From Rhodospirillales bacterium (GTDB lineage Bacteria > Pseudomonadota > Alphaproteobacteria > Rhodospirillales > Casp-alpha2), in the NCBI GenBank assembly GCA_013203955.1, contig JABMOY010000140.1, positions 1,362 to 65,361 of the forward strand: DNA of 64,000 nt, read 5' to 3'. Numbering within the stretch: the first letter of the stretch is position 1; every line of letters begins with the position of its first letter. Below the pieces are notes generated by a model. The model did not search any database. It had not been told where the DNA came from and worked only from the letters and a program-made list of their open reading frames with translations. A program made the position numbers and the translations under genes. Below, piece by piece: positions 44,937 to 58,131 of the stretch.

Positions 44937-45455
44937 CTAGCCTTCGCGCGCACGGTTTAAAATTTCAAGGGCGACCGGGCGCAAGTCGGCAAGGTCCTGG
45001 CTGTTGTCGACGACCATATCCGGGGACCGGGGCGGGGAGAACTCCATATCGACGCCGACTACGTTTTTGACTTCACCGGCCAAGGCGGGCGCATAAAGGT
45101 TTTTTTGGTCGCGGGCATAAAGGGTTTCCATAGGCACTTTGACGTAAACCTCGAAATATTTGGAAAGAGTCTTGCGGTTTCTTTCCCGCAGCTCTTCGAA
45201 AGAGGAAATGGTGCAGCAAATAACGTTGATGCCCTGCCTGTCCAGCCAAACGCACAGGTCGCAATACCTTTCGGCGATATAGTGCCGACCTAGTTCCGTG
45301 TATGCGTTGTTTCCCGTGGATGATTTTAGAATATCGCGGATTTCATCGCCGTCGACGATTACCGTATTCTGCTCTTCCACAGTCCATAGTTCGTAAAGGT
45401 GGCGGCCGATGGTTGTTTTACCGGACGCCGATAAGCCCGTAAGCCAAATGATCAC
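44937..45455 (-). CDS. APS-kinase-like P-loop kinase (divergent CysC homologue)
   Basis: 172 aa with a GTG start at 45455 preceded by GGGGGA. P-loop IWLTGLSASGKTT and DGDEIR motif. The LGFS/ENIRR block of canonical APS kinases is not conserved. Confidence 0.65.
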   Translation of the reverse strand: MIIWLTGLSASGKTTIGRHLYELWTVEEQNTVIVDGDEIRDILKSSTGNNAYTELGRHYIAERYCDLCVWLDRQGINVICCTISSFEELRERNRKTLSKYFEVYVKVPMETLYARDQKNLYAPALAGEVKNVVGVDMEFSPPRSPDMVVDNSQDLADLRPVALEILNRAREG

Positions 45456-45466
45456 GTTATTTTCCC

Positions 45467-45481
45467 CCGGTGTGTTTCAAT
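45467..45481. repeat. Direct repeat copy 1 (CCGGTGTGTTTCAAT)
   Basis: Shares CCGG plus the exact 10-mer GTGTTTCAAT with 45549-45562. The copies bracket the 102-nt gap between the Fe-ADH and APS-kinase-like genes. Confidence 0.3.
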
Positions 45482-45548
45482 GGAAATCTGTTTCGCCAAA
45501 TTTTTTTTATTCGGCTTCAACGAACTGATGGGGGTGGTTAAAACAAAA

Positions 45549-45562
45549 CCGGGTGTTTCAAT
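45549..45562. repeat. Direct repeat copy 2 (CCGGGTGTTTCAAT)
   Basis: See copy 1. This copy overlaps the stop codon of the Fe-ADH gene (45558-45560). Confidence 0.3.
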
Positions 45563-46718
45563 TGTTGACGGCGGCATCCAGCTCGCTGGCTGGACAAAAA
45601 TAGTTCAGTGCAAGCCGGGCAATTCGTCGTGCAGCCTCTTCATCAACGCTGCGAATGTTGTTAGCGGCGCGGGAACGGGTGATGAGATTACCTTCAAGGG
45701 TATCTGCGACATCGGGCGTTACATACGCGGCGAGAAGCGGGCCGACGCCCAGTTCCCCGAACCATTTCTCCAGATGTTCCGGGATTTCATCGACGGAACA
45801 CTCGAGCCCCTCGGCGATAGGAAGAAGCCGGCTGGGGTCATCTTTCATGTTGTAGCGGGCGATTTCGGGCAAGGTGAAACTGCAGGCAAGGCCATGCGGA
45901 ACGTCGAAATGAGCGGTAAAGGGATAACTGATGGAATGGGCGGCGGCAGTCTGGGTCGTTCCCATGGTCAGGCCTGACAGAAGCGAGGCTATTTGTACCC
46001 GGCTTCTGAGTACGATGTCGTTTGGTTCTCTCATTGCCGCCAACAGATGGCGGCGGAGCGTACGGATGGCCTTTTCCGCCAGCGCATCCGTGACTTCCGT
46101 ATGGCGCCTGTTCCACACCGATTCCATGGCATGGCTAAGCGCGTCCAACCCCGTAGCAAGGGTCAGGTTTCCGGGCATGGAAACGCACAAAGCTGGGTCA
46201 AGAACGGCGTTGCTGGGATAGAGGCTCGTATGGGAAACCGAATGCTTGATCCTATCTTCCCCCCAGATGGTTCCCCAGCAGGTGACTTCCGACCCGGTGC
46301 CGGATGTCGTTGGCACCGCTATGATGGGTATTGGGGCAAAAGAGTCCGGTAGCGGTTCGCCATCCCTGAGATGGGTCATGAAGGGCCTAAGGTTGTTGCT
46401 CAGGGCCTTAAGGGCGACGGCGCCTTTGGCGGCGTCGATGACGCTGCCGCCGCCGAGGGCAACGACGGTATCGACATCCGGCAACTCATCTGCCAATCCG
46501 ACCACGGTCGGGACATCGGGGTTGCTACAGACGTTCGCCAGCAGCGCCCGGGGTGGGCCGCAACGGTTCTGGATTTTGCCGACTGCACCTCGCATCAGCC
46601 AGCCGGCGCTGGTAACCAGGACCCAGGACTTGCCATCCAGGAGGCCCGCCAGTGCCTCATCGAAGTCCTGGCCTTGGGCAACCACGGTCGGACAATGGAA
46701 GGGACGCTTTAGAACCAT
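45558..46718 (-). CDS. Iron-containing alcohol dehydrogenase (phosphonoacetaldehyde-reductase-like by context)
   Basis: 386 aa. VVALGGGSVIDAAKG and His-rich metal-site segments (LDALSHAMESVWN, AAAHSISYP). The start overlaps the upstream HEPD/MPnS-family gene by 10 nt. Confidence 0.8.
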   Translation of the reverse strand: MVLKRPFHCPTVVAQGQDFDEALAGLLDGKSWVLVTSAGWLMRGAVGKIQNRCGPPRALLANVCSNPDVPTVVGLADELPDVDTVVALGGGSVIDAAKGAVALKALSNNLRPFMTHLRDGEPLPDSFAPIPIIAVPTTSGTGSEVTCWGTIWGEDRIKHSVSHTSLYPSNAVLDPALCVSMPGNLTLATGLDALSHAMESVWNRRHTEVTDALAEKAIRTLRRHLLAAMREPNDIVLRSRVQIASLLSGLTMGTTQTAAAHSISYPFTAHFDVPHGLACSFTLPEIARYNMKDDPSRLLPIAEGLECSVDEIPEHLEKWFGELGVGPLLAAYVTPDVADTLEGNLITRSRAANNIRSVDEEAARRIARLALNYFCPASELDAAVNN

Positions 46719-48100
46719 TGTTTGGTCTCTCCGGCGACGCGGCTGCGGCCCTCAACGGCAAAGGTTGAGAATTCATCGATGACGGCATCGCTTAGCGTTC
46801 CCGGTATGCGGACAATGACAAGCCTACCCTCGTCCTGATCCGGGGCAACGGAGAAAGAATGGCTAACCATCGGTCGAATATAGGCAGAATCGCCGGGGTT
46901 GATAATGTCCGCATTTTCGTTTTCGCCCTCGTTCCAAAGAACGGAGACGGGCACGCCGCCGTAATTGTAGACATATTGATGAAGGCTGTGGCGGAATTGC
47001 CCTTCGGTCGTATCCACGCCGGACAGTACGCTGAGATCGAATCCCTTTAGGCCCGGCTGGCGCCGGGTGCGGGCTAATTCACGCATCCGGTAAGCAGGAT
47101 TATTGACTTTCGGATAAAGACGCTCGGGGGTATCACCGGCATAGCGGACGGTCACAGGACCTTCATCTTCCAGCGGCGTCACCATCAAGTCTTCGGCCCG
47201 GATGTGAAGGGCCTTGGCCAGGGCGACCGTTTCGTCGGCTGTCGGCACCTCGTTTCCGCCTGTCAACATGTCGATGCGGGTCCGATCCATCCCGCCCGCT
47301 AGCAACCGGTCGGCCAGGTCTTGTCGGTTGAGGGACTCGGCGGCTAGATACCTGTCGAGCCGCGCTCGGAACGCGCCGATGCTGTTCGTCGGATTTCCGG
47401 CCAATTCGTCGGCGCTGTTAGGGCCGATCAATCCGAATTGGCCCAGCGCCCGGCGAACATCACCGCCGTAGGTGACGGCGAGGATCAGGCCGGGCCGGTC
47501 GGGGTTACGACCGGCGAACGAGTGCGGCACAAAAGGAGAAATGTAATTGGAATCACCGGTATTCATTTCCGTGCAGTAGCCCTGCCCGGCGATCCGCCAA
47601 TAAAAGTTCACTTCGCCGATGAAGAACGTGCATTGATGCATCAGGTGGCCGTGGTTATAGGCGACATCCGGGTTGTCCGGGTCGGCATCGTCGACGAGGC
47701 GAATCGGCTGTATCCATTCCGGCTTGAAAGGCGCGGTACGGCTCATGGCGGTATCACGGTATTCGTAATAGGGCGTAAGATCGCCGTCGCGGTCCTTGCG
47801 ATCAAAGAAGCGTAGGGTCGCCCGGCTTTCTTCGTCCCGCATGATTTTCACGCCGGATTCGGTATCGTCAGGTTCCACCCAAAGGTCGGCCAGGGAAACC
47901 GGATATTTATCCGCCATGGCACGGATGATCGCTTCCGCCGTTTCCACGGGGGAGCGACCATCGATGGCGGCATGAATGGTATCAATATCGAATTCTATTT
48001 CTTCCGCTAGGGCCTCGGGGGTGCGCTTTAGGTCGTTGGCTTCGGAAAAGATTCGGGAACCCAATGCCGCTAAATGTCTTTTATCGCGAGTCTCATTCAT
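46709..48100 (-). CDS. mpnS: HEPD/MPnS-family non-haem iron oxygenase (tandem HTH-like plus cupin repeats); candidate methylphosphonate synthase
   Basis: 463 aa. Two repeats of helical HTH-like segment plus cupin. The first cupin carries AYNHGH(152)LMHQ(156)CTFFIGEVNF(166)...NYI(187)SPFVPH(193), the His-x3-Gln...His pattern with Phe/Ile neighbours that I recall for MPnS. The second cupin lacks an equivalent ligand set. Confidence 0.6.
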   Translation of the reverse strand: MNETRDKRHLAALGSRIFSEANDLKRTPEALAEEIEFDIDTIHAAIDGRSPVETAEAIIRAMADKYPVSLADLWVEPDDTESGVKIMRDEESRATLRFFDRKDRDGDLTPYYEYRDTAMSRTAPFKPEWIQPIRLVDDADPDNPDVAYNHGHLMHQCTFFIGEVNFYWRIAGQGYCTEMNTGDSNYISPFVPHSFAGRNPDRPGLILAVTYGGDVRRALGQFGLIGPNSADELAGNPTNSIGAFRARLDRYLAAESLNRQDLADRLLAGGMDRTRIDMLTGGNEVPTADETVALAKALHIRAEDLMVTPLEDEGPVTVRYAGDTPERLYPKVNNPAYRMRELARTRRQPGLKGFDLSVLSGVDTTEGQFRHSLHQYVYNYGGVPVSVLWNEGENENADIINPGDSAYIRPMVSHSFSVAPDQDEGRLVIVRIPGTLSDAVIDEFSTFAVEGRSRVAGETKQWF

Positions 48101-48110
48101 CGGCCGCGCC

Positions 48111-49223
48111 TTATTCCTTGAATACCTTTAGGGCTTTTTCATAATCCTCGACGGTGTCGATTTCCTTCCAGCCGCGCTCAATCATGACGCAGTGGACAGG
48201 AACGCCTAGATCAACCATTTCCTGGATCATGTCGGTCAGATATGCTTTCTGGAAAACCGCTGCACGCTGGAAAGGTTTGTCCCAGAAAACTTCCTTGGCG
48301 CGGTGGAAGTGTTTCTTGAAAATTCCGGCGCCCCTTGGCGACAATTTCATCATGCCGATGAATTCGCCATGAACGTCGTGCTTATCGGCAAAAATTTTTC
48401 CAATTTCAACGACGTTATTGTTGGCGTCGAAGATGACCGTTTCGGCTTCTTCCAAGGGGTGGTCATTGCGGTCGACGTAGTACCCGCGCCAATCAAGATC
48501 GACGACGACGGAGATATCGGCTTCAGACCGCAGGAGTCGTTGGACGACCTGACTCTCAAATAGGATGTCGGAATAGGAAACGATGATATGCCCGTCCAAT
48601 TCTTTTTCCGCATAGAACAGTGAATTGAGGATGTTGTTGTCATGGTAATCAGGGTTCTCGTAATACCGAATGCCCGGGTAGTTGATCTTTTCCTTCGCAA
48701 AACCACGGATCAGGGCGACATTATTTAGCCCGCATTCCTGAAACGCCGCCAATTGCCGCTGCAACAGGGTCTGGCCATCGAAATCAAGCATGCATTTAGG
48801 CTGTGACTCGGTGTGCGCTTTCAACCGGCTTCCCATGCCGGCGGCGATGATCAGCACCTTGGTATTGGAGGACGTTATGGTTTCTCTCATTTCGTCTATC
48901 TGCTCGCCGGAAAGATTGAATTTGTGTATAGCGCGGATTAGGGGAATTGTTTCGGGCCTGTCGCGCATAATAGGGTCGACATCGGGGGCAACGGCGTTTT
49001 TCGACTGACCGGCAAGATCGAAAAGTTTTTCGGTGTCGGCATCCAGAATTTCAGCAAGGGATTCGATGGCTTCAACCCTCGGAGCAACACGTTTGTTTTT
49101 TTCGATATCATTCAGATAAGAAGGCGAAACCTTCAGCGCACGCGCCAGTTCCCGCTGTCCAATTTCCCTTTGCATCCTTAAGGACCGGACATATTCGCCA
49201 AAAGTCTCTTTTCCTTCATGCAT
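48111..49223 (-). CDS. XRE-type HTH domain fused to a LicC/PntC-like nucleotidyltransferase
   Basis: 370 aa. N-terminal HTH (GQRELARALKVSPSYLNDIEKNKR). A nucleotidyltransferase domain follows from about residue 120 (VLIIAAGMGSRLK...). Visibly lower GC than neighbouring genes. Confidence 0.8.
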   Translation of the reverse strand: MHEGKETFGEYVRSLRMQREIGQRELARALKVSPSYLNDIEKNKRVAPRVEAIESLAEILDADTEKLFDLAGQSKNAVAPDVDPIMRDRPETIPLIRAIHKFNLSGEQIDEMRETITSSNTKVLIIAAGMGSRLKAHTESQPKCMLDFDGQTLLQRQLAAFQECGLNNVALIRGFAKEKINYPGIRYYENPDYHDNNILNSLFYAEKELDGHIIVSYSDILFESQVVQRLLRSEADISVVVDLDWRGYYVDRNDHPLEEAETVIFDANNNVVEIGKIFADKHDVHGEFIGMMKLSPRGAGIFKKHFHRAKEVFWDKPFQRAAVFQKAYLTDMIQEMVDLGVPVHCVMIERGWKEIDTVEDYEKALKVFKE

Positions 49224-49305
49224 GTAAAACCTTGATTCTCCAGTGTTCTACTGTTCGCAAACAAGTTAACACTTAAATAAACCCTGTCGCAATACTAAAA
49301 AAACA

Positions 49306-51150
49306 TTACTTTCCAATGGCTTGATCTCTCTTGCAGCCTGCAGCGACGGCATCTCTGCCAATATCGCCGAAACAATCGATGATGCGTTGGTCGGTGATTT
49401 CAGGAATCTCGGCCATGCGTTCCGCAATCAGGGCATTGAAGCGGGAAATCAGTTGGTGGTCGGGGCGGTACAGGTTGTGGGTTTCCGACGGGTCGTCCCG
49501 GATATTGAACAGTTCTGGGCCATCGGGGCTGAACTTGTCGGCCGGGTCCTTGTATTCGCGCCAGCAATAAAGGTGGTCTTTCGTGCGCACGGCGAAATAA
49601 AGGGGTCGGTGGTCGAACAGGCAATTGCCGCCGTAGAAGGTTTCCAGCAACACATGATCCCTATCGCCGCCTCCCGGTTCGGTGACCGCTAGGCCCTCCC
49701 AGTCCGGGGCCGGGTCGACCCCTGCCAGGGCGGCTACCGTCGGCGGCATGTCGGCGATGGTGAACAGCCCGTCGAGGCGCGTCTTGCCGATTTTCGGGTG
49801 GGAAAAAACCATCGGCACCCGCGTGTTGTGGGTGTAGTGCAGGAAATAATGGCCGAAATCGCCGTGATCGCCCAACTCCTCTCCGTGGTCGCCGGCAACG
49901 ATAATCAATGTGTCGTCCCTGAGGCCTAGCCGTTCGACGGCGTCGACGATGCGCCCGATCTCATCATCTGTTGAGCGCACGGCGCAATCGTAAAGGGCGG
50001 AAAAGGCATCGCCGTCTTGTTTTCTTTTCGGCTTGCCGTCGAAGGACAGGGAAGGATCGATATCCGGAGAATAACCGAGTGCCTCCAGCAGCCGGGGGGT
50101 GTGCCGATACCACTTTCGGCCCGGCCCTGAAACATAAGGGTGGTGAGTGTCCATGAAGTGGGTCCAGATGAAAAAGGGCTTCGTTTTATCCCGCTGCTCC
50201 AGCAGGCCGATGACCTTGTCGGCCAGGGAGTGGGCATCGGGGTAGATCTTGAAGCGGTTTTGCCGCGCCCGCGCCCATTTGGCATTTACCCAGCCAAGCA
50301 ACAGGTTGCCGGCGCGGAAAAAAAGCTCTGCGATCAGCCTGGAAGGTTTCCGGCAATAACGCCATTCCCTGACCAGCCAGCGGTTCATCCATTCCTTGCC
50401 GACCGGCGTCGGGATCAGGTGGCGGCGGATATAGGCAATCTTACCGGCCTGGTATTCCTGCCGGTGGCGACCGATGGCGGCCTTGATCTTGGCGAAGTCG
50501 TAGCGCGAATTGACCAGCGCCGAATCAGGAAAGTCGCGGTCGATTTCATCGCCCCGCTCAAGTATCAGGTCGCAATAAACCGACGTGTTGTCAAAAAACC
50601 GCAACAGCACGGGATCGACTTTGCCTAACAGTTCGCCGTCGTTGATGTTGCCTTTCTCAAACTCCAGAAGGGTGTTGCGGATCATCGCCAGGGCGACGCC
50701 CGGCAAGGAGTTCAGCCCGAAGGTTTGGATTTCCTCGTCAATGCCTTCGTCATATCCGAAAAACCTGTTGACCCAATGAAGCGTGGTCAAGCACGTGGTT
50801 TTGTAGCCAGCGTCATGGAACCGCTTGAACACGGTTTCGGGCCGGCCTTCGGCGCCGTAATCGTATCCTCCGTAGGACAAGGGGCGGCTTGACGTGAACA
50901 TCTGCGCGCTGGCGGCCTGGGTGAAGGTGGCCATGGAAAAAGCGTTTTCACAGACGACGGCCGTTTTGGCCAGCCGTTCCAGGGTGGGGGTCGTCGGACG
51001 GTCGTAGCCATGCAGGCTGGTACGGTCGGCGCGTAGCGCGTCGACGGTCAGCATCAGGATGTTGGGTTGTTGATGTCGATGATCCATCAAATTATATCCA
51101 GGAGAAGGCTTTTGGCGTCGTTCTGGGAATCGCCGAAACGGAATTCCCAA
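49306..51150 (-). CDS. Alkaline-phosphatase-superfamily (sulfatase-fold) protein lacking the formylglycine motif
   Basis: 614 aa. Sulfatase-like N-terminus PNILMLTVDALRAD...TPTLERLA...NAFSMATFTQAASAQMFTSSRP and a later VAGDHGEELGDHG block. The position of C-x-P-x-R is occupied by T-Q-A-A-S. An alternative start is M22 at 51087. Confidence 0.75.
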   Translation of the reverse strand: MGIPFRRFPERRQKPSPGYNLMDHRHQQPNILMLTVDALRADRTSLHGYDRPTTPTLERLAKTAVVCENAFSMATFTQAASAQMFTSSRPLSYGGYDYGAEGRPETVFKRFHDAGYKTTCLTTLHWVNRFFGYDEGIDEEIQTFGLNSLPGVALAMIRNTLLEFEKGNINDGELLGKVDPVLLRFFDNTSVYCDLILERGDEIDRDFPDSALVNSRYDFAKIKAAIGRHRQEYQAGKIAYIRRHLIPTPVGKEWMNRWLVREWRYCRKPSRLIAELFFRAGNLLLGWVNAKWARARQNRFKIYPDAHSLADKVIGLLEQRDKTKPFFIWTHFMDTHHPYVSGPGRKWYRHTPRLLEALGYSPDIDPSLSFDGKPKRKQDGDAFSALYDCAVRSTDDEIGRIVDAVERLGLRDDTLIIVAGDHGEELGDHGDFGHYFLHYTHNTRVPMVFSHPKIGKTRLDGLFTIADMPPTVAALAGVDPAPDWEGLAVTEPGGGDRDHVLLETFYGGNCLFDHRPLYFAVRTKDHLYCWREYKDPADKFSPDGPELFNIRDDPSETHNLYRPDHQLISRFNALIAERMAEIPEITDQRIIDCFGDIGRDAVAAGCKRDQAIGK

Positions 51151-51188: not shown

Positions 51189-52985
51189 TCAAAGCTTGGC
51201 GAGCTCGACAAGGTTGTTGAAGTTTGAATTGCGTGCGGCCAGTTCCTCGAATGTCCCGATATCGTCAATGCGACCGTCTTTCAAAAAAACCACGCGATCG
51301 CATGCTCGAACCGTACTTAGCCGGTGGGCAATGATGATCATGGTTTTTTCGCCGCGGAATTTTTCGATGGCCTGATTGACCTCCTGCTCGGTTTCGCTAT
51401 CGAGCGAAGACGTCGCTTCGTCAAAAATAAGAACCCCAGGATCACGGTAGAGAGCTCGGGCGATGCCCACGCGTTGGCGTTGCCCGCCGGAGAGGCGGGT
51501 TCCCCGGTCGCCTAATTGCGTTTCCAGGCCATCGGGCAGACCCCTAACGAAGCTCTCCAACTGCGCCAGGCGGACGGCGTTTTGTATCATGTCCTCGCTG
51601 ATCTCATGGTCAGCCAGCCCAAAGGCAATGTTACGGCGCAGGGTGTCATCGGTAATGTATATGGATTGTGGCACGTATCCGATTTGGCGGCGCCAGGCGC
51701 TAGGTGCGTCCCGTATATTCGTGCCATCGACGGTCACAGCGCCCGAGTCCGGAACCAAAAGGCTAAGCACTATATCGACCAGAGTGGTTTTGCCCGAACC
51801 GGACCGCCCCACCAAGCCCATGGACTCGCCCTTGTTTAAGACGAGATCAATGTCCTTCAAAACGGCACCGTTGCCTTGGTCATAGCTAAAGGACACTCCA
51901 TTTATAGATAGCGCCGTTTTAAATGCCAGGGTCTGGCCGTCGTCTTCCGACTCTTCGTCCGGGTTGGCACGGAATGCATGAAGGTCTTGATAGATGAGTT
52001 CGACGGCGTGCGACCCACTCTTGATGCCGTTAAGGGCGATGATGATCCTGTTCATCGACGGAATCATGCGAAAGGCGGCAATCGCGAAAAGGGTGATTGA
52101 CGAAAGAATTTCCGCCGATCGGCCGCCGCTGGAAAGAATGGATATGACAGCCAATAGGACGGCGGCGACAATCACGGACTCGACCCACAGTCGCGGCGCC
52201 CCGCTCATTGCCCTGAGCTTGGTTCGGATTCCGGCAAGTTCCAGACAGGGGCTTTCAAAGCTTTCGAGAATGTAACGCTGCCGGCCCAGAATTTTCACCT
52301 CTTTGATGTTGTGAAATCCCTGCTGCAGGGATTTTAGGACTTCCCCAGTCGCTTTTTGCTCGCGCATACCCCAGGCCGAGAACCGACTTTTTGAAAAGCT
52401 GAAAAATATGGCGACCGCCGCGCCTAGCACGAGAAACGCGCCAAGGGTCAACATCGGTTCTGCCATGAGCAGGACAACGATCAGCGCGACGATCATGACG
52501 GCTTCCGAAGCAAGGTTGATGAAACCCGTAATCACGGTGCCGAAAATAGCCGTCACAGAGCCGGTAATGTTGCGAATTAAATCTGCAGAATTCCGTCTCA
52601 AATGCAGGGAATAGGCGCCTTTAAGGTAACTGTCCAACAGGCGTACGGCCAACGAAGCTTCGTTGGCGGCGGTAAAGCTTGCCTGAAAGTAATAAAATCC
52701 GATAAGGATCAGGTTCTTGATAAGGAACCCCGCAAGGAGACCGAATGACATGAGGATCAATGCCTCGGTTTCGTTCTCGACAAAGGCCGGGCCGACTAAC
52801 TTTCCGACCACCGCAATATTTTGTATCTGGGTGGGGTCAATCAGTGCTTGGACGAAAACGAATATTAACCCGATTCCAATCGCTTCGAGCATGCCGGCAA
52901 CCAAAGCCAAAATGCTGACCGCCCCGGCATGCCACAGGGTTTTTCGCTCGATCATGGCGAGGCATTTTCGGAGTTCAGTCAACAT
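51189..52985 (-). CDS. ABC exporter, fused permease-ATPase (MsbA/PglK/Wzk-like)
   Basis: 598 aa. Six-helix TMD followed by an NBD with Walker A GRSGSGKTT, signature LSGGQRQR and Walker B LIFDEATSSLD. Confidence 0.9.
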   Translation of the reverse strand: MLTELRKCLAMIERKTLWHAGAVSILALVAGMLEAIGIGLIFVFVQALIDPTQIQNIAVVGKLVGPAFVENETEALILMSFGLLAGFLIKNLILIGFYYFQASFTAANEASLAVRLLDSYLKGAYSLHLRRNSADLIRNITGSVTAIFGTVITGFINLASEAVMIVALIVVLLMAEPMLTLGAFLVLGAAVAIFFSFSKSRFSAWGMREQKATGEVLKSLQQGFHNIKEVKILGRQRYILESFESPCLELAGIRTKLRAMSGAPRLWVESVIVAAVLLAVISILSSGGRSAEILSSITLFAIAAFRMIPSMNRIIIALNGIKSGSHAVELIYQDLHAFRANPDEESEDDGQTLAFKTALSINGVSFSYDQGNGAVLKDIDLVLNKGESMGLVGRSGSGKTTLVDIVLSLLVPDSGAVTVDGTNIRDAPSAWRRQIGYVPQSIYITDDTLRRNIAFGLADHEISEDMIQNAVRLAQLESFVRGLPDGLETQLGDRGTRLSGGQRQRVGIARALYRDPGVLIFDEATSSLDSETEQEVNQAIEKFRGEKTMIIIAHRLSTVRACDRVVFLKDGRIDDIGTFEELAARNSNFNNLVELAKL

Positions 52986-53069: not shown

Positions 53070-53627
53070 TCATGGCCGATCCTTGCCGTCGATTTCAAGG
53101 CGCGAACGGATAAAAGCATATAACGTGCCGACGGCGTCCTCTGGGCTTTGATGGGCGGTGTCGAGTTCAAGGTCGGGCGATTGCGGCGGCTCGTATACAC
53201 TACCTGAAGAAAAGCCGATCATGCCGTCCATTTCACCTCCAGCCGCCTTGGCGTACAGGCCCTTGACGTCGCGACCGACGACCGTGTCCAGATCCGCATT
53301 GCAGAAGATTTCAAAAAAACCGGGGCCCAGCTTTTCGCGCGCGTCCCGCCGGCTCTCGCCATAAGGTGAAATAATCGGCACCAAGATGACGTCGTAAAGC
53401 CCTCGTTGTTCGGCGCAGATTTCGGCGATTAACATGTTGTTTTCCTTAACCTCGGGCTCGCTGAAACCGAGGTGACGGTGAAAGCGGCGGCGTACGTCGT
53501 CGCCGTCCAGGGTCAAGACGTCGAGCCCGTCCTTGGTCAGCTGTTCCCTGACGCCGTCGGCGATGGTGCTTTTTCCCGCCCCTGACAGCCCTGTGAACCA
53601 GATAACGCCGCCCGGCTTGCTCGTCAT
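53070..53627 (-). CDS. cysC: Adenylyl-sulfate (APS) kinase
   Basis: 185 aa from ATG 53627, which forms an ATGA overlap with the upstream stop. VIWFTGLSGAGKSTIA, LDGDDVRR, LGFS, IISPYGESR. The track start at 53762 adds an Arg-rich extension overlapping the upstream gene. Confidence 0.88.
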   Translation of the reverse strand: MTSKPGGVIWFTGLSGAGKSTIADGVREQLTKDGLDVLTLDGDDVRRRFHRHLGFSEPEVKENNMLIAEICAEQRGLYDVILVPIISPYGESRRDAREKLGPGFFEIFCNADLDTVVGRDVKGLYAKAAGGEMDGMIGFSSGSVYEPPQSPDLELDTAHQSPEDAVGTLYAFIRSRLEIDGKDRP

Positions 53628-55588
53628 GACGTCGAGGCCTTCGGAGGGAATACAGGCGTAATGCCGATATCGCCCAGGCGGTCGAACAGGTCCCGGGCGG
53701 CGTTCGTTCCGTCTTCGCTGGCGGCGGGAATGAAATAGCCGCAGCCCATGTTTTTCAGGCAAAGGGCGGCGAAGACCATTTCCCGGGGACCGCTGAGCCG
53801 GCCATAGGCAGCGAACCCGCCGAGAACCACCCGGCCTTCGGGATAGATCCCCGATTGCAAGGCCGCTTGATAGCTTTCCATCACCGGGTCGGGTTGGGAT
53901 TCGCCCGGCGCATCGGGGTCGATGGACGGGCTGATGTAGAGCCCGTCGGCCTTGGTTGAAGCCAAGGCATCAATGTGGAAATTCTGCAATTTCTGGGTGG
54001 ACGAGGCTTCACCGTAAAACCCGGCGACCCGGCTCCAGCCCTTCTGGTTGAAGATAAAACGGGTCTGGGCCGGGAAAAGCTGGTAATGGCGCCACGGCGA
54101 TGGAATTCGATTGACCAGCGTTACCGGCCCGGCGACGGCCATGTCCCCGGCGGCCAGCAACCGCTGCACGCCCGGATGGTCCCGAGCGTCGGTCTCGAAC
54201 AAGGCTTTGGCCGTCTTGTCGAAATCAAGCGGATAAATTTCCGTGACATCCATGAAGGCGTGGGCCTCGCGGCTATCCGACGTCAGCGCGATCCTGTCCC
54301 CGGGGGCGAAGGCTTTGGTCTTTTCCACCATCGTCTGCAAAACGACCGGCAGGGTCCAGGCGAGGCCATCGTTAAGTTGGTATTTGGTCAAAACCGATTC
54401 CAAGGTCGCCTGGTCCATGAAGCCGGTCAAAGGGGAATAGGTGCCCAGCGCAATCTGCTGGCAATCGAGAAGATCCCTGGCCGAAACCTGGAGCCGGGGC
54501 AGGCCATCCAACGCTTCGCCATCGGCGGCCTCGCGGTGGACTAAGGCGCCACCGTGCGGTTCGGGCAGCAGCGACACGGGGTCAAGGTGGTAGCGGTCGG
54601 TTTCGTCGTCGTCCCGATTTTCGAAGACGTTGATCATCTTCGCCACCATGTTGGCGCAGCGCACCGGGTATTGGCCGATGGCCGTTTCCGCCGCCAAGAC
54701 GACCCCGTCGGCACCGTCCAAGAAGGTATTGTAGATGTCGTTGACTTCGGCCCGGGTGGGCACGGGCTCTGTGACCATCGATTCAAGCAGGTTGGTTGCC
54801 ACATAGACCTTTCGGTTTTTGGCGCCGGCCGTTTTGATAATCTTTTTCTGGTAGGCGGGGATGAGTTCGATGGGAACTTCGCGCGATAAATCGCCCCGGT
54901 CGATCAATATGGCATCGGACAGTTCGGCGATTTCTTCAAGATTGTCGACGCCGTTGCGGCATTCGATCTTGGAAATGATGGAGGAACCTTTTCCGGTCAG
55001 CGTTCGAAGCTCCCTTACGTCCTTTCCGGAATTGGCGAACGATAGGGCGAAATGAGTGACTCCTAAGTCGACGCCGATGGCGACTGCCGCTCGATCCTTT
55101 TCCGTCAGCGCTGGCATAGTGATGGGTCGGTCCACGGTAACGGCCTTATTGCGACCAAATTTTCCGCCGTTGAGAACCCTCATGGAGAGCGTATCGGCGG
55201 TGCAATCGATGACCTGAACCAGGACGGCGTTGAAATCGATGCTGATTATGTCGCCGACTTGGAATTCCGAAATGATGCCGTGGGGATAAAAATTGAAATC
55301 TTTGCCGTTTCCCGGAACCGTTTCCCGGTGCGCCCGGACGATGGCATTTTCATCCATTTGAAAGGTTGGCTCCGTTAGGTCCCCGGTGCGGATCTGCGCG
55401 CCTTCCGTATCCAAGGACAGCGGCACCCGGGTTAACGAGGTAACGAAACGGATGGCGTCGGCGACGTCGTCCAGCTTAGTGTGGGACAGGTTGATCCTGA
55501 ACAACGTCACGCCCAGCTCTTCCAGCCGGGCAATGACGTGCTCGTTCATGGAAGCCGGGCCGAGGGTGCAGAGAATTTCTTTGGTCAT
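53624..55588 (-). CDS. Fusion protein: pyruvate-kinase-like barrel (about aa 1-335) plus ATP-sulfurylase-like domain with degenerate catalytic motifs (about aa 340-654)
   Basis: PK motifs: ILCTLGPAS, RINLSH, LDTEGAQIRTG, ISKIE, IDRGDLSREVP, ATNLLESM, PTRAEVND, LAAETA. Sat-like part: GTYSPLTGFM, GPREMVFAALCLKNMGCGYFI. GFYGEASSTQ replaces QTRNPxHxxH, and PAASEDG replaces GRDHAG. Confidence 0.8.
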   Translation of the reverse strand: MTKEILCTLGPASMNEHVIARLEELGVTLFRINLSHTKLDDVADAIRFVTSLTRVPLSLDTEGAQIRTGDLTEPTFQMDENAIVRAHRETVPGNGKDFNFYPHGIISEFQVGDIISIDFNAVLVQVIDCTADTLSMRVLNGGKFGRNKAVTVDRPITMPALTEKDRAAVAIGVDLGVTHFALSFANSGKDVRELRTLTGKGSSIISKIECRNGVDNLEEIAELSDAILIDRGDLSREVPIELIPAYQKKIIKTAGAKNRKVYVATNLLESMVTEPVPTRAEVNDIYNTFLDGADGVVLAAETAIGQYPVRCANMVAKMINVFENRDDDETDRYHLDPVSLLPEPHGGALVHREAADGEALDGLPRLQVSARDLLDCQQIALGTYSPLTGFMDQATLESVLTKYQLNDGLAWTLPVVLQTMVEKTKAFAPGDRIALTSDSREAHAFMDVTEIYPLDFDKTAKALFETDARDHPGVQRLLAAGDMAVAGPVTLVNRIPSPWRHYQLFPAQTRFIFNQKGWSRVAGFYGEASSTQKLQNFHIDALASTKADGLYISPSIDPDAPGESQPDPVMESYQAALQSGIYPEGRVVLGGFAAYGRLSGPREMVFAALCLKNMGCGYFIPAASEDGTNAARDLFDRLGDIGITPVFPPKASTS

Positions 55589-56367: not shown

Positions 56368-57291
56368 TCAGCCGCCGGCTCGAACGGCGGCCAAAATGGT
56401 ATCCTTATCCAGGCCGTGCTTGGCCCTGAGATCGTCGTGCGATCCGTAACAGTGAATGAATTCGTCCTTAAGCGTGAAGGTATGTAGTTGGCACGTCGCC
56501 TTTTCGTCCCAAGCGATCTGCTTTGTCATCGGCGCCAGTCCACCCCGGGGCGCGTGCTCCTCGATGACAATGGCGGTCTTGTGGTCGCGTAGCGCTTTGG
56601 CGATGCCTTCGCGGTCCAGGGGCTTTAAGGTATGGACGTTCAACACCGAAACCGACGCGCCGCCGACTTCCAGCGTGTCGGCGATTTCCATCGCCATCGA
56701 CATGATGGGGCCGTGCGACAGGACGCAAATGTCCCGGCCTTCCCGGAGACGGCGGACTTTGCCGAACTCGAACGGATCGAGGGCGTTTCCTGTCAACACC
56801 GGCTCGCCCGCCTTGCCAAGCTTGAAATACATCGGCCCCTTGTTTTCCAGCGCGCAGTAACGAGTCATCTCCATTGTTTCCGCCGGGTCGCAAGGCGTCA
56901 GGATCTGCATGTTGGGCAGTGCCCCGGCGATGGCAATATCTTCCTGGGTGTGATGGGTTCCCCCCAGCGTTGAATAAACGATGCCGCTGCCCATGCCGAC
57001 GACGGTGACGGGCAAGTTCTGGTAACACAGATCGTCGCGGACCATTTCGAACGGCCGGTAAAGGGTGAACGTAGCGATGGTATAGGCAAACGGCCGGAAC
57101 CCTTTCAGGGCCATGCCGGCGCAGATGCCGATCATGTTCTGCTCGGCGACTCCGACATTGATGAAACGTTCGGGGCATTCTTCCTGGAACTTGACCATGG
57201 ACCCGGCCGGCGAAATATCGGCGACGACGATGCTGACCCGATCGTCCTCGACGGCCGCTTGGTAAAGGGATTCGGCGAAGGCATTTCTCAT
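56368..57291 (-). CDS. Transketolase-family protein, C-terminal (pyrimidine-binding) subunit
   Basis: ERFINVGVAEQNMIGICAGMALKGFRPF motif. ATG 57291 forms an ATGA overlap with the N-terminal-subunit gene. Confidence 0.88.
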   Translation of the reverse strand: MRNAFAESLYQAAVEDDRVSIVVADISPAGSMVKFQEECPERFINVGVAEQNMIGICAGMALKGFRPFAYTIATFTLYRPFEMVRDDLCYQNLPVTVVGMGSGIVYSTLGGTHHTQEDIAIAGALPNMQILTPCDPAETMEMTRYCALENKGPMYFKLGKAGEPVLTGNALDPFEFGKVRRLREGRDICVLSHGPIMSMAMEIADTLEVGGASVSVLNVHTLKPLDREGIAKALRDHKTAIVIEEHAPRGGLAPMTKQIAWDEKATCQLHTFTLKDEFIHCYGSHDDLRAKHGLDKDTILAAVRAGG

Positions 57292-58118
57292 GAACTGGAC
57301 TCGAGCTCTTTCATGGCTTGTTCGTATTCTTCTGGGTTGGGTGCCCGGTAGTGCCATATCGGCACATTTTCCATATAGCTCACGCCCTTGCCCTTGGTCG
57401 TCTTGGCGATGGCCATGAAGGGCTTGCCCCCCTGGCGATCCGTTGCCGCCTTAAAAAGGGGCTCTGCGTCGTGGCCGTCGAGTTCGACGGCTTCCCAGCC
57501 GAAGGCGGTAATCTTGTCGAGGACCGGATAGAAGCTGGGGTGGGTTTCCGATGTTCTCCCTAAGCTTTGGAAATCGTTGTTGTCCATGAACACGATCAGG
57601 TTATCCAACCCCATTGAAGACGCCATCATGAGGGCTTCCCAGGTTGATCCTTCCTGCGCTTCGCCATCGCTGATAACAACGTAAATTTTTACACCCCGGC
57701 CTTTGAGCTTTTCCGCATAGGCCATGCCGACGGCCATGGATAGGCCGTGGCCTAACGACCCGGTGGATGCCTCGATCCCGGGATTGCCGTAATCGGGATG
57801 GCACCCCAGCCGCCCTTCGGGCGTGCAGTATAGGTCAAGGTCCTTGCGGTTCAGTATGCCAAGGTCCTCCAAGACCACGTACTGGATCATGCAGCCGTGA
57901 CCCTTGGACATCAGGAAGGTATCCATTGGCGTTCCATCGTCTGTCCGGTTCATCAAGCCGTTGTAGATCAAATCGACGATTTCCGTGCACGAAAAGGCGG
58001 CGGCGATGTGCAGCGCCGTAACCTGCTGGGAAATCTCCAGTATGCGCTTGCGGTAGTCCCGGCACCGGGACTTGGCGGCCTCGGCATCGAAGCTGTTGGA
58101 TTGTTTGTTTGCAGTCAT
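57288..58118 (-). CDS. Transketolase-family protein, N-terminal (ThDP diphosphate-binding) subunit
   Basis: SKGHGCM, GSLGHGLSMAVG, VVISDGEAQEGSTWEALMMAS...NLIVFMDNN (ThDP motif). ATG 58118 (MTANKQ) is preferred over the track start at 58220, which overlaps the upstream gene. Confidence 0.88.
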   Translation of the reverse strand: MTANKQSNSFDAEAAKSRCRDYRKRILEISQQVTALHIAAAFSCTEIVDLIYNGLMNRTDDGTPMDTFLMSKGHGCMIQYVVLEDLGILNRKDLDLYCTPEGRLGCHPDYGNPGIEASTGSLGHGLSMAVGMAYAEKLKGRGVKIYVVISDGEAQEGSTWEALMMASSMGLDNLIVFMDNNDFQSLGRTSETHPSFYPVLDKITAFGWEAVELDGHDAEPLFKAATDRQGGKPFMAIAKTTKGKGVSYMENVPIWHYRAPNPEEYEQAMKELESSS

Positions 58119-58131
58119 TCTTTGATGGGTA

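What the first reader, a model, noticed from the sequence alone, without database searches (positions are those of the whole stretch)
53624..55588. Unusual fusion: pyruvate-kinase catalytic barrel joined to an ATP-sulfurylase-like domain with ablated catalytic motifs, translationally coupled to APS kinase
Residues 1 to about 335 retain essentially all pyruvate kinase A-domain motifs: TLGPAS, NLSH, LDTEG..IRTG, SKIE, DRGDL..E, LLESM, PTRAEVND, ETA. The normal allosteric C-domain of PK is missing.

It is replaced by about 310 aa that align with ATP sulfurylase (PUA-like GTYSPLTGFM, GPREMVFAALCLKNMGCGYFI). Two catalytic signatures are replaced:
- QTRNPxHxxH is replaced by GFYGEASSTQ (aa 523-532)
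- GRDHAG is replaced by PAASEDG (aa 621-627)

The stop overlaps (ATGA) the start of a canonical cysC. I can see three readings:
- A PK regulated by a nucleotide- or (P)APS-binding pseudo-sulfurylase domain.
- A sulfurylase fold retooled to adenylylate a different tetrahedral oxyanion. Methylphosphonate is an obvious candidate given the neighbouring genes, with the PK part supplying ATP.
- A scaffold for local PAPS synthesis.

I do not know of a characterised protein with this architecture.
Basis: partly seen in the sequence, partly recalled or inferred. Interest (0 to 1): 0.75.

Follow-up and report, generated by a model that had tools for sequence, protein, structure and literature searches.

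The report
Pyruvate kinase fused to dead sulfurylase
This gene joins an apparently working pyruvate kinase to a sulfate-activating (ATP sulfurylase) domain that has lost its catalytic residues; it is a degenerate member of a widespread, apparently unstudied fusion family that usually sits beside genes for adding sulfate to cell-surface sugars.

Summary
A 654-aa ORF on the minus strand (53624-55588) has a pyruvate-kinase A+B barrel, a PUA-like domain and an ATP-sulfurylase Rossmann half. That half lacks all three sulfurylase signatures and the last ~70 residues. Its stop overlaps (ATGA) the start of a canonical cysC. The DNA is identical in three assemblies, so it is not an artefact.

The fusion itself is not rare. 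At least 544 species genomes across at least ten phyla encode it, and I found no paper, NCBIfam model or solved structure for it. Of 197 members, 176 keep all three motifs. Neighbours are typically an APS kinase (34/84 loci, mostly within -4 to +32 nt) and a sulfotransferase (~42/84), so the family looks like a PAPS-supply module for glycan sulfation.

Motif loss arose at least 8 times. Here only the catalytic half is accelerated (39-49 versus 6-9 unique changes); PK and PUA are not.

Best reading (inferred): PK stays active and the dead sulfurylase-like domain survives as a scaffold or regulator for PK and the coupled APS kinase, as in Thiobacillus and Entamoeba APS kinases. Methylphosphonate adenylylation is not supported. 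No sulfotransferase was found in the window, so partial decay of a sulfation module remains a live rival.

The parts
53624..55588 (-). Whole ORF, 654 aa plus stop: pyruvate-kinase barrel, PUA-like domain and a degenerate, truncated ATP-sulfurylase-like domain
   Evidence: ORF list and translation; three Pfam domains; identical in three assemblies from different samples
54584..55588 (-). Pyruvate-kinase A+B domains (aa 1-335). The motifs that I take, from my own knowledge of pyruvate kinase, to carry the catalytic residues are kept; the allosteric C-domain is absent
   Evidence: Pfam PK 1.7e-70. PDB PK 7oo1 E=3e-56 over aa 4-327. Foldseek rmsd 2.7-3.1 A to PKM2 over ~340 columns. R31, N33, S35, D60, K207, E209, D233 and T278 are invariant across 60 family members. 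No rate acceleration
54107..54562 (-). PUA-like N-terminal domain of ATP sulfurylase (aa 343-494)
   Evidence: Pfam PUA_2 6.9e-40. Evolves at roughly the sister-lineage rate with two of three outgroups
53627..54106 (-). Sulfurylase-like Rossmann half (aa 495-654): catalytically ablated, C-terminally truncated by ~70 aa, fast-evolving
   Evidence: Pfam ATP-sulfurylase covers only profile 2-153 of 212. 53% identity to nearest relatives against 80% between those relatives. 39-49 window-unique versus 6-9 sister-unique changes, p<=2.4e-6. AF2 block pLDDT mostly 80-95 for aa 495-650, with dips to 66-74 and 36 for the last four residues
53984..54022 (-). GFYGEASSTQKLQ (aa 523-535), in place of the family motif GFH[TSG]RNxxHRxHE (the QTRNPxHxxH nucleotidyl-transfer motif of ATP sulfurylase)
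   Evidence: Alignments; position check
53708..53728 (-). PAASEDG (aa 621-627), in place of GRDHxG, followed by a 6-residue deletion
   Evidence: Alignments; position check
53624..53627 (-). ATGA stop/start overlap between the fusion gene and cysC
   Evidence: DNA read. Spacing of -4 to +32 nt in 28 of 30 related loci that carry CysC
53070..53627 (-). Canonical APS kinase (cysC), 185 aa
   Evidence: Pfam APS_kinase 2.2e-40; TIGR00455 155.9 bits, above the 138.7 cut-off
51189..52985 (-). Context: PglK/MsbA-like ABC exporter, a conserved neighbour of the fusion gene
   Evidence: present in 25 of 84 related loci
44937..51150 (-). Context: putative methylphosphonate-decoration module. It comprises a sulfatase-fold protein with no Cys/Ser-x-Pro-x-Arg motif, an HTH-nucleotidyltransferase, an MpnS/HEPD homologue, an Fe-ADH and a second APS-kinase-like gene of the PRK05541 subfamily
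   Evidence: (6b9s E=6.6e-81)

Best explanation
The gene is a degenerate member of a widespread, apparently uncharacterised family in which a pyruvate kinase (A+B domains) is fused to a Sat-type ATP sulfurylase. That family normally works with an adjacent APS kinase and sulfotransferase to supply PAPS for sulfating surface glycans.

In this Rhodospirillales lineage the sulfurylase half has lost catalysis: all three signature motifs are gone and the C-terminal ~70 residues are deleted. The PK and PUA-like domains and the co-translated APS kinase remain under normal constraint.

Most likely mechanism (inferred):
- The PK half still converts PEP plus ADP (or another NDP) into ATP.
- The dead sulfurylase-like domain (SLD) takes the place of the missing PK C-domain as the oligomerisation and docking module.
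- It contacts the APS kinase made from the overlapping cistron. ADP released by the kinase is then re-phosphorylated locally.
- APS would come from a sulfurylase encoded elsewhere in the genome.

Shown: the architecture, the motif loss, the domain-specific rate acceleration, the family context, the recurrent losses, and that the sequence is not an artefact.
Inferred: PK activity, SLD inactivity, the SLD-kinase contact, and an external APS source.
For: 1. Family and context.
- All top 120 homologues have PK + PUA_2 + ATP-sulfurylase; at least 544 species genomes encode a relative.
- A CysC-type kinase lies directly downstream in 34 of 84 loci, at -4 to +32 nt in 28 of 30 measured.
- A Sulfotransfer_3-like ORF lies within 10 kb in about 42 of 84 loci, mostly immediately adjacent.

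2. Loss of catalysis is specific to this member.
- 176 of 197 members keep all three motifs.
- The window lacks all three and is the only complete member among the 197 that lacks the C-terminal ~70 aa. Two other short entries, L041 and L046, are cut by a contig end.

3. Constraint is lost only in the catalytic half.
- PK identity to nearest relatives is 77-79%, equal to the identity between those relatives. The catalytic half is 53% against 80%.
- Tajima counts: 39-49 versus 6-9 in the catalytic half; 10-16 versus 13-26 in PK.
- The 312-codon SLD is still an open frame with only one in-frame 6-residue deletion.

4. Pseudo-sulfurylase versions recur and persist.
- At least 8 independent losses on a PK-domain tree.
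- One motif-less clade (Cytophagia, Planctomycetaceae, Gammaproteobacteria) keeps the full-length domain. Its catalytic half is 50-84% identical among members. That is less than in intact pairs at similar PK identity (mean 83-88%) but far from random.
- These motif-less members still sit next to sulfotransferases or ATGA-coupled CysC.

5. Precedent.
- Non-catalytic sulfurylase-like domains N-terminal to APS kinase occur in T. denitrificans and E. histolytica. There they stabilise the oligomer and enhance kinase activity (PMC13213808).
- The domain order SLD then kinase is the same here, split only by the ATGA junction.

6. The AF2 model is confident overall (mean pLDDT 87.3).
Against: - No sulfotransferase was detected anywhere in the 64-kb window (phmmer and iterated jackhmmer; Pfam). 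The syntenic locus L017 has one between cysC and the ABC gene, where the window has only 85 bp. The PAPS consumer is therefore unidentified, and the sulfation module may be partly lost.
- No other ATP sulfurylase or CysDN is in the window, so the APS source is assumed.
- No interaction, PK activity or inactivity of the SLD has been measured.
- The AF2 fold is driven by an alignment of intact homologues.
- Only one sequence of this variant exists (the next relative is 68% identical). Selection on the variant itself therefore cannot be measured by dN/dS.
Confidence: 0.5

Rival explanations
1. Decaying remnant. The cluster switched its decoration from sulfate to methylphosphonate. The sulfotransferase was lost, and the sulfurylase half is an eroding relic with no function of its own. 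PK and cysC are either still useful for unrelated reasons or simply have not decayed yet.
For: - No sulfotransferase in the window, whereas about half of family loci, including the syntenic L017, have one adjacent.
- The sulfurylase half is truncated and evolves 5-8 times faster than its sister.
- The MpnS module sits where relatives carry a glutamine-kinase/amidotransferase/nucleotidyltransferase module.
Against: - After divergence large enough to change ~47% of catalytic-half residues, there is no stop or frameshift in 312 codons.
- The PUA-like domain and PK evolve at normal rates.
- The ATGA coupling to an intact cysC is preserved.
- Independent motif-less lineages keep the domain over long divergence.
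Confidence: 0.22
2. Allosteric pseudo-sulfurylase. The SLD still binds APS, PAPS or another nucleotide and uses it to switch PK activity, functionally replacing the PK C-domain effector site.
For: - The SLD occupies the position of the PK C-domain.
- From my own knowledge (not checked in a paper here), the APS-kinase-like domain of Penicillium ATP sulfurylase (1i2d, matched) is a PAPS allosteric site, which is a precedent for a ligand-sensing pseudo-domain in this pathway.
- The fold is predicted to be preserved.
Against: - The residues that make the anion- and nucleotide-binding pocket basic are replaced by neutral or acidic ones: R, N and two or three H in HTRNxxHRxH become GEASSTQKLQ, and R and H in GRDHxG become AASEDG.
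- The C-terminal part that closes the site is missing.
- Different motif-less lineages have different replacements.
- In EhAPSK the SLD 'lost substrate binding capacity' (PMC13213808).
Confidence: 0.15
3. Retooled adenylyltransferase. The altered sulfurylase site adenylylates methylphosphonate or another oxyanion, and the downstream kinase makes a PAPS-like donor.
For: - Proximity to an MpnS homologue (6b9s E=6.6e-81).
- Two APS-kinase-like genes in the cluster.
- From my own knowledge, the Campylobacter phosphoramidate pathway uses a 3'-phosphorylated nucleotide donor.
Against: - All three motifs are lost, including the HxxH-type motif that I understand to be needed for nucleotidyl transfer, and so is the C-terminal lid.
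- No MpnS or Fe-ADH homologue in any of 84 related loci.
- Other motif-less members pair with sulfotransferases.
- No convergent new motif.
- A dedicated HTH-nucleotidyltransferase and a PRK05541-type kinase already flank mpnS.
Confidence: 0.04
4. Artefact: a sequencing or assembly error, or two genes mis-joined.
For: None found.
Against: - Identical DNA (0 of 2519 nt differ) in two JGI metagenome assemblies and one Logan assembly of an SRA run.
- A single colinear frame against homologues.
- The same fusion in hundreds of genomes.
Confidence: 0.01

Closest known systems
Sulfurylase-like domain (SLD) of the APS kinases of Thiobacillus denitrificans (PDB 3cr8) and Entamoeba histolytica
   Same: A Sat-type sulfurylase fold has lost catalysis. 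It sits immediately N-terminal to an APS kinase and is kept for oligomer stability or kinase enhancement (PMC13213808). EhAPSK also lacks a substrate-binding loop and has a shortened C-terminal linker, comparable to the truncation here. 3cr8 matches the PUA part (E=2.3e-13).
   Different: Here the SLD and the kinase are separate polypeptides joined only by an ATGA overlap. The SLD also carries a complete pyruvate-kinase barrel at its N-terminus. The loss is recent within an otherwise active family.
Sat-type homo-oligomeric ATP sulfurylase (e.g. Methanothermococcus thermolithotrophicus 8a8d, Thermus thermophilus 1v47)
   Same: PUA-like plus Rossmann catalytic fold; these are the best sequence matches (E=9.5e-50 and 9.1e-41).
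   Different: All three signature motifs are absent, the last ~65-70 residues are missing, and the protein is fused to PK.
Bifunctional PAPS synthases and fused sulfate-activation enzymes (Aquifex aeolicus 2gks, human PAPSS1; fungal ATPS with an APS-kinase-like allosteric domain, 1i2d)
   Same: The sulfate-activation steps are physically coupled, with the domain order sulfurylase then kinase (hits).
   Different: None of these contains pyruvate kinase. In the fungal enzyme, from my own knowledge, it is the kinase-like domain that is the pseudo-enzyme, not the sulfurylase.
Pyruvate kinase (e.g. P. aeruginosa 7oo1, E. coli PykF 1pky) and the short, C-domain-less PK subfamily NF005234 (PRK06739)
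   Same: A+B barrel with the catalytic motifs.
   Different: No C-terminal allosteric or tetramerisation domain; a sulfurylase fold takes its place. The motif DTEGAQIR replaces what I recall as the canonical DTKGPEIR (sequence).
The PK-ATP sulfurylase fusion family itself (uncharacterised; annotated 'pyruvate kinase' or 'sulfate adenylyltransferase')
   Same: Same three-domain order, 50-69% identity, same ATGA-coupled cysC and ABC-exporter neighbours.
   Different: 654 rather than ~720 aa, all three sulfurylase motifs lost, and no adjacent sulfotransferase.

Membership tests
Pyruvate kinase (Pfam PF00224; TIGR01064) | A-domain TIM barrel with inserted B domain | tested here: met
   Pfam 238 bits, profile 5-326 of 328. 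PDB alignments over aa 4-327. Foldseek rmsd ~3 A.
Pyruvate kinase (Pfam PF00224; TIGR01064) | Motifs carrying the catalytic and metal-binding residues (RxNxSH, DT..R, K-I-E, GD, T-R-A-E; residue roles are from my own knowledge) | tested here: met
   R31, N33, S35, D60, R67, K207, E209, D233 and T278 are present and invariant in 60 family members.
Pyruvate kinase (Pfam PF00224; TIGR01064) | C-terminal alpha/beta allosteric domain; full-length equivalog score | tested here: not met
   No PK_C hit. TIGR01064 scores 274 bits, below the 306.4 cut-off, and covers only profile 4-338 of 476.
Pyruvate kinase (Pfam PF00224; TIGR01064) | PEP + ADP -> pyruvate + ATP activity | not testable with these tools
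   Needs an enzyme assay.
ATP sulfurylase, Sat type (PF14306 + PF01747; TIGR00339) | PUA-like N-domain plus Rossmann catalytic domain | tested here: met
   PUA_2 6.9e-40 and ATP-sulfurylase 9.1e-20, but only profile positions 2-153 of 212.
ATP sulfurylase, Sat type (PF14306 + PF01747; TIGR00339) | QTRNPxHxxH-type motif (FH[TSG]RNxxHRxHE in this family) | tested here: not met
   FYGEASSTQKLQ at the aligned position.
ATP sulfurylase, Sat type (PF14306 + PF01747; TIGR00339) | GRDHAG motif | tested here: not met
   AASEDG at the aligned position.
ATP sulfurylase, Sat type (PF14306 + PF01747; TIGR00339) | C-terminal segment with the ISGTxxR loop; equivalog score | tested here: not met
   The protein ends ~70 residues early. 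TIGR00339 scores 163 bits, below the 322.95 cut-off.
PK-ATP sulfurylase fusion family (uncharacterised) | PK barrel, PUA_2 and ATP-sulfurylase in one polypeptide | tested here: met
PK-ATP sulfurylase fusion family (uncharacterised) | Intact sulfurylase motifs and a length of ~715-745 aa | tested here: not met
   176 of 197 members are intact; the window lacks all three motifs and is 654 aa.
PK-ATP sulfurylase fusion family (uncharacterised) | APS kinase immediately downstream | tested here: met
   ATGA overlap; the same arrangement in 28 of 30 measured loci.
PK-ATP sulfurylase fusion family (uncharacterised) | Sulfotransferase gene nearby | tested here: not met
   None in 64 kb, against about 42 of 84 related loci.
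Non-catalytic sulfurylase-like domains (SLD) associated with APS kinase | Sulfurylase fold with the catalytic and substrate-binding elements lost | tested here: met
Non-catalytic sulfurylase-like domains (SLD) associated with APS kinase | Covalent fusion to the APS kinase domain | tested here: not met
   A stop codon separates them; they are coupled only by the ATGA overlap.
Non-catalytic sulfurylase-like domains (SLD) associated with APS kinase | Absence of sulfurylase activity; stabilising or activating effect on the kinase | not testable with these tools
   Needs biochemistry; the precedent is in PMC13213808.

The most novel reading that the evidence does not exclude
PK-sulfurylase fusions are an unrecognised, PEP-fuelled sulfate-activation machine used by hundreds of bacterial species for glycan sulfation. 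Within it the sulfurylase half is repeatedly converted into a pseudo-enzyme that remains essential as the assembly and activating subunit for PK and the APS kinase. In this window that PK-SLD/CysC unit has been carried over into a methylphosphonate-decorating cluster. There it may fuel or 3'-phosphorylate a PAPS-like nucleotide-phosphonate donor rather than PAPS.
Probability: 0.2. Interest if true: 0.75.

Novelty: new variant of a known kind. Interest (0 to 1): 0.52.

Why it matters
From my own knowledge, sulfate activation is thermodynamically uphill, and the known ways of driving it are GTP hydrolysis (CysDN), pyrophosphatase fusions and kinase fusions. A pyruvate kinase welded to the sulfurylase, next to APS kinase and sulfotransferase genes in at least ten phyla, would be a further way of powering PAPS supply from PEP. 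It appears unstudied, although it occurs in culturable Methyloversatilis, Mesorhizobium and Ensifer.

The window's copy, together with at least seven other independent motif losses, is a natural experiment. It indicates that the sulfurylase fold has a second, non-catalytic job, which is how pseudo-enzymes are thought to arise.

Practically, these genes are annotated as 'pyruvate kinase' or 'sulfate adenylyltransferase'. For the roughly 7% of sampled members with dead motifs, the second name predicts an activity that is probably absent.

Tried and rejected
- **Frameshift or compensated-frameshift origin of the lost motifs.** tblastn of intact homologues against all frames, plus three-frame translation, found only one colinear frame and no remnant of HTRN, GRDH, ISGT or the C-terminus downstream.
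- **Assembly artefact.** Rejected: identical DNA in three assemblies from different samples.
- **Hidden sulfotransferase in the window.**
  - phmmer and 4-round jackhmmer, seeded with five sulfotransferases from related loci, hit only the two APS kinases.
  - The 536-aa protein with no Pfam hit (38379-39989) had no PDB match by sequence or by profile. Its AF2 model (pLDDT 91.7) is a GT-B glycosyltransferase/epimerase-like fold, not a sulfotransferase.
  - The 341-aa protein with no Pfam hit (30040-31065) stayed unassigned.
- **PepM/Ppd or another sulfurylase/CysDN in the window.** None among the ORFs scanned. The 1.6 kb beyond the window end holds an SDR, a ferredoxin and a B12-radical SAM gene.
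- **Literature.** Five full-text searches found no description of a PK-sulfurylase fusion. PMC2756168 (the T. denitrificans structure paper) is not held.
- **Plasmid collection.** Two rhizobial megaplasmids (Ensifer adhaerens, Sinorhizobium chiapasense) carry full-length homologues, but nothing is annotated at those positions.
- **NCBIfam.** There is no dedicated model; only partial PK and Sat models matched, all below their cut-offs.
- **dN/dS on this variant.** Not possible, because the only relatives closer than 68% identity are identical copies.


Full report
**1. The observation**

The ORF is on the minus strand, 53624..55588, and encodes 654 aa. Pfam finds three domains:
- a pyruvate-kinase barrel, aa 4-310, E=1.7e-70, covering profile positions 5-326 of 328, so the A and B domains are both present;
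- a PUA_2 domain, aa 343-494, E=6.9e-40;
- an ATP-sulfurylase domain, aa 501-648, E=9.1e-20, covering only positions 2-153 of the 212-position profile.

The stop codon overlaps the ATG of the next gene (…TCATGA…). That gene encodes a 185-aa APS kinase that passes the TIGR00455 cut-off.

Against solved ATP sulfurylases (8a8d, E=9.5e-50; 1v47, E=9.1e-41) the alignment is colinear. GFYGEASSTQKLQ stands where the enzymes have the QTRN..H..H motif, and PAASEDG stands where they have GRDHAG.

The PK half aligns over aa 4-327 with real pyruvate kinases (7oo1, E=3e-56). It keeps the motifs that, from my own knowledge of pyruvate kinase, carry the phosphate-, K+- and Mg2+-binding and catalytic residues (R31, N33, S35, D60, K207, E209, D233, T278). 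These positions are invariant across 60 family members.

**2. Not an artefact**

tblastn of two intact homologues against the region gives a single colinear frame. No alternative frame holds a remnant of the lost motifs or of the missing C-terminus.

The same 654-aa protein and its coupled cysC occur in two JGI metagenome assemblies and in an independent Logan assembly of an SRA run. There are 0 differences over 2519 nt, and 0 over the 20.4 kb (or 6.2 kb for the short contig) that each locus shares with the window.

**3. The fusion is common and the dead motifs are not**

- All 120 best database hits have the same three Pfam domains and are ~700-754 aa long. Sources name them 'pyruvate kinase' or 'ATP sulfurylase'.
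They include Alpha-, Beta- and Gammaproteobacteria, Chloroflexota, Verrucomicrobiota, Planctomycetota, Actinomycetota, Omnitrophota, Elusimicrobiota, Gemmatimonadota, Calditrichota and Bacteroidota.
- Cultured hosts include Methyloversatilis universalis, several Mesorhizobium, Sinorhizobium saheli, Pseudaminobacter soli and Salsipaludibacter albus. Ensifer adhaerens and Sinorhizobium chiapasense megaplasmids also carry it.
- Of 197 distinct members, 176 keep all three signatures: FH[TSG]RNxxHRxHE, GR[DN]HxG and ISGTxxR.
- The window lacks all three. It is the only complete member among the 197 that also lacks the last ~70 residues. Two other short entries, L041 and L046, are cut by a contig end.
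- I found no NCBIfam model for the fusion, no PDB chain covering both halves (best TM-score normalised to the query 0.46, all PK) and no paper in five full-text searches.

**4. What the family does, judged from its neighbours**

In the 84 fetched loci (81 distinct):
- A CysC-type APS kinase lies directly downstream in 34. Spacing is -4 to +32 nt in 28 of the 30 measured, and ten have the same 4-nt overlap as the window.
- A Sulfotransfer_3-like ORF lies within 10 kb in about 42, usually immediately up- or downstream.
- One locus has an APS-kinase domain with a faint Sulfotransfer_1 hit in one 538-aa protein, directly after the fusion gene.
- The surrounding genes are polysaccharide genes: Wzy, flippases, glycosyltransferases, sugar-modifying enzymes and PglK/MsbA-like ABC exporters.

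The family is therefore best read as a PAPS-supply module inside surface-glycan clusters. The PK half plausibly regenerates ATP from PEP for the two ATP-consuming steps. That last point is inference, not measurement.

**5. What happened in the window lineage**

Identity to the nearest relatives (P0002, P0005), compared with the identity between those two:

| Region | Window vs P0002 / P0005 | P0002 vs P0005 |
|---|---|---|
| PK | 79 / 77% | 79% |
| PUA | 62 / 61% | 70% |
| Catalytic half | 53 / 53% | 80% |

Tajima relative-rate counts, window-unique against sister-unique changes:
- catalytic half: 39-49 against 6-9 (p between 7e-9 and 2.4e-6);
- PK: 10-16 against 13-26;
- PUA: roughly equal with two of three outgroups.

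Constraint was therefore lost specifically on the catalytic half, and long enough ago to change about half its residues. PK, the PUA-like domain and the canonical cysC stayed conserved, and the 312-codon sulfurylase-like region stayed an open frame with only one in-frame 6-residue deletion.

The replacements remove the basic residues of the anion and nucleotide pocket and add acidic ones. Binding of ATP, APS or sulfate is therefore unlikely; this is inference.

An AlphaFold2 model is confident overall (mean pLDDT 87.3, pTM 0.72). The 10-residue block means for the sulfurylase-like catalytic half (aa 495-650) are mostly 80-95, with dips to 66-74. The caveat is that the alignment consists of intact homologues.

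**6. Pseudo-sulfurylase versions recur**

- About 13 of the 197 members have degenerate motifs. On a neighbour-joining tree of the PK domain they fall into at least 8 separate lineages.
- One of these is a diversified clade spanning Cytophagia, Planctomycetaceae and Gammaproteobacteria. It keeps a full-length domain.
- In that clade the catalytic half is 50-84% identical among members. Intact pairs at PK identity of 70-90% average 83-88% there. The clade is thus clearly relaxed but not random.
- In intact members the catalytic half is the most conserved region. In motif-less members it is among the least conserved.
- Motif-less members still sit next to sulfotransferases (L074, L077, L051, L058, L072, L081, L026) or have an ATGA/GTGA-coupled CysC (L026, L035, L037, L048; the P0041 locus has a kinase 10 nt downstream).

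This argues that the fold has a non-catalytic role that outlives catalysis.

**7. Precedent**

APS kinases of Thiobacillus denitrificans (3cr8) and Entamoeba histolytica carry an N-terminal, non-catalytic sulfurylase-like domain (PMC13213808).
- In T. denitrificans the domain is proposed to stabilise the hexamer.
- In E. histolytica it has lost a substrate-binding loop, has a shortened linker, is needed for solubility, and enhances kinase activity through inter-protomer contacts.

The window has the same order, SLD then kinase, split by an ATGA junction, with a PK barrel added in front.

**8. The window's own context**

Downstream of cysC, on the minus strand, lie:
- a PglK/MsbA-like ABC exporter;
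- a sulfatase-fold protein. By eye it has Thr where sulfatases have the Cys/Ser of C/S-x-P-x-R (…ATFTQAASAQMFTSSRP…), and its N-terminus resembles phosphoethanolamine transferases;
- an HTH-nucleotidyltransferase;
- an MpnS/HEPD homologue (best match methylphosphonate synthase 6b9s, E=6.6e-81);
- an Fe-alcohol dehydrogenase;
- a second APS-kinase-like gene of the PRK05541 subfamily;
- ManC.

In related loci (L001-3, L017, L025, L037, L049, L056, L085) the equivalent position holds a different module. It comprises a PPDK_N/PEP-utilizer protein, a Peptidase_C26/GATase protein, a nucleotidyltransferase, a sulfatase-fold protein and, in most of these loci, a small APS-kinase-like gene. From my own knowledge this matches the gene set of the Campylobacter O-methyl-phosphoramidate pathway (Cj1418, Cj1417, Cj1416, Cj1415).

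The window thus appears to have a methylphosphonate module where relatives have a phosphoramidate module, each with its own nucleotidyltransferase and kinase.

No MpnS or Fe-ADH homologue was found in any of the 84 related loci. The PK-sulfurylase/MpnS association is therefore specific to this contig, not a property of the family.

No sulfotransferase was found in the window. The syntenic locus L017 has one between cysC and the ABC gene, where the window has 85 bp. No PepM, Ppd, Sat or CysDN is in the window either.

**9. Verdict on mechanism**

- **Best supported (about 0.5).** PK stays active. The dead, truncated sulfurylase-like domain is kept as the assembly and docking module for PK and the co-translated APS kinase. 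APS comes from elsewhere in the genome.
- **Main rival (about 0.2).** The sulfation module is being dismantled in a cluster that now uses methylphosphonate, and the sulfurylase-like domain is a relic. The missing sulfotransferase favours this. The intact frame, the normal PK and PUA rates, the preserved coupling and the recurrent long-lived pseudo-versions count against it.
- **Ligand-sensing domain (about 0.15).** Weakened by the loss of the basic pocket.
- **Methylphosphonate adenylylation (about 0.04).** Contradicted by the loss of every nucleotidyl-transfer element, by the family context, and by the presence of a dedicated nucleotidyltransferase.

**10. Novelty and interest**

The specific gene is a new variant of known kinds: multi-domain sulfate-activation enzymes and sulfurylase-like pseudo-domains. 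The more interesting result is at family level. A widespread PK-sulfurylase fusion, tied to APS kinase and sulfotransferase genes and apparently undescribed, has repeatedly turned its sulfurylase half into a pseudo-enzyme. Interest is moderate (0.52): real, testable in culturable hosts and somewhat surprising to sulfur-metabolism specialists, but mechanistically unproven.

Noticed in passing
window 44937-51150 (minus strand): A methylphosphonate-type module: an MpnS/HEPD homologue (46709-48100; PDB 6b9s E=6.6e-81), an Fe-ADH, an HTH-fused NTP_transf_3 nucleotidyltransferase, a sulfatase-fold protein and a PRK05541-type APS-kinase-like gene. No PepM or Ppd was found anywhere in the 64-kb window or in the 1.6 kb beyond its end, so the source of 2-hydroxyethylphosphonate is unexplained.
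   Followed up: partly
L001-L003 (13690-21226), L017, L025, L037, L049, L056, L085: Marine and soil Alphaproteobacteria carry a PPDK_N/PEP-utilizer protein, a Peptidase_C26/GATase protein, a nucleotidyltransferase, a sulfatase-fold protein and usually a small APS-kinase-like gene next to the PK-sulfurylase gene. From my own knowledge this is the gene set of the Campylobacter O-methyl-phosphoramidate pathway (Cj1418-Cj1415). It suggests phosphoramidate-decorated glycans well outside Campylobacter, and the window has an MpnS module at the equivalent position.
   Followed up: partly
window 49306-51150 (minus strand): A sulfatase-family protein (Pfam Sulfatase 8.4e-39) with no Cys/Ser-x-Pro-x-Arg formylglycine motif. 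By eye a Thr sits at that position (ATFTQAAS), and its N-terminus resembles phosphoethanolamine transferases. It is a candidate phosphoryl or phosphonyl transferase rather than a sulfatase. It is a conserved neighbour of the fusion gene (15 of 84 loci).
   Followed up: partly
window 38379-39989 (minus strand): A 536-aa protein from a widespread family (607 hits at E<=1e-10) with no Pfam domain and no PDB match by sequence or profile. Its AF2 model (pLDDT 91.7) is a GT-B glycosyltransferase/UDP-GlcNAc-2-epimerase-like fold. It co-occurs with the PK-sulfurylase/CysC/ABC genes in L004, L056, L064, L066 and L083.
   Followed up: yes
L051, L058, L072, L074, L077, L082: A diversified clade of full-length PK-sulfurylase fusions in Cytophagia, Planctomycetaceae and Gammaproteobacteria. 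Their sulfurylase motifs are replaced by shared alternatives (e.g. GFxTGxxxNRLxE, HFIVExDxGHF, MSDxAIQAAL). Five of the six have a sulfotransferase gene immediately downstream; the sixth (L082) is on a short contig. This is a stable pseudo- or neo-sulfurylase lineage that deserves its own study.
   Followed up: partly
L085 7785-9401: A single 538-aa protein with an APS_kinase domain and a faint Sulfotransfer_1 hit. It lies directly downstream of a motif-degenerate PK-sulfurylase (P0041) and looks like a possible kinase-sulfotransferase fusion.
   Followed up: no
window 56368-58220 and 59964-61550 (minus strand): A split transketolase-like pair (Transketolase_N; Transket_pyr + Transketolase_C) and a bifunctional CTP_transf_like + PfkB protein lie upstream of the fusion gene. 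The same genes recur in L037 and L038, which suggests an unusual branched or higher-carbon sugar in this glycan.
   Followed up: no
window 30040-31065 (minus strand): A 341-aa ORF with no Pfam hit (E<=0.1) and no PDB sequence match. Its function is unknown, and it is the only remaining unassigned candidate in the cluster for a missing activity such as a sulfotransferase.
   Followed up: partly
window 2400-7253 (plus strand): A large (1617-aa) bacterial NAD-glutamate dehydrogenase with its full ACT/helical-motif architecture. It is ordinary housekeeping and marks the edge of the glycan cluster together with purH (9997-11568).
   Followed up: no
family alignment A1/A2, PK motif around window aa 59-69: The whole fusion family has LDTEGAQIRTG where, as I recall, canonical pyruvate kinases have LDTKGPEIRTG. 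The Lys becomes Glu, and the Glu that I recall as linked to K+ dependence becomes Gln. This may indicate altered monovalent-cation dependence or altered nucleotide preference of the PK half.
   Followed up: no
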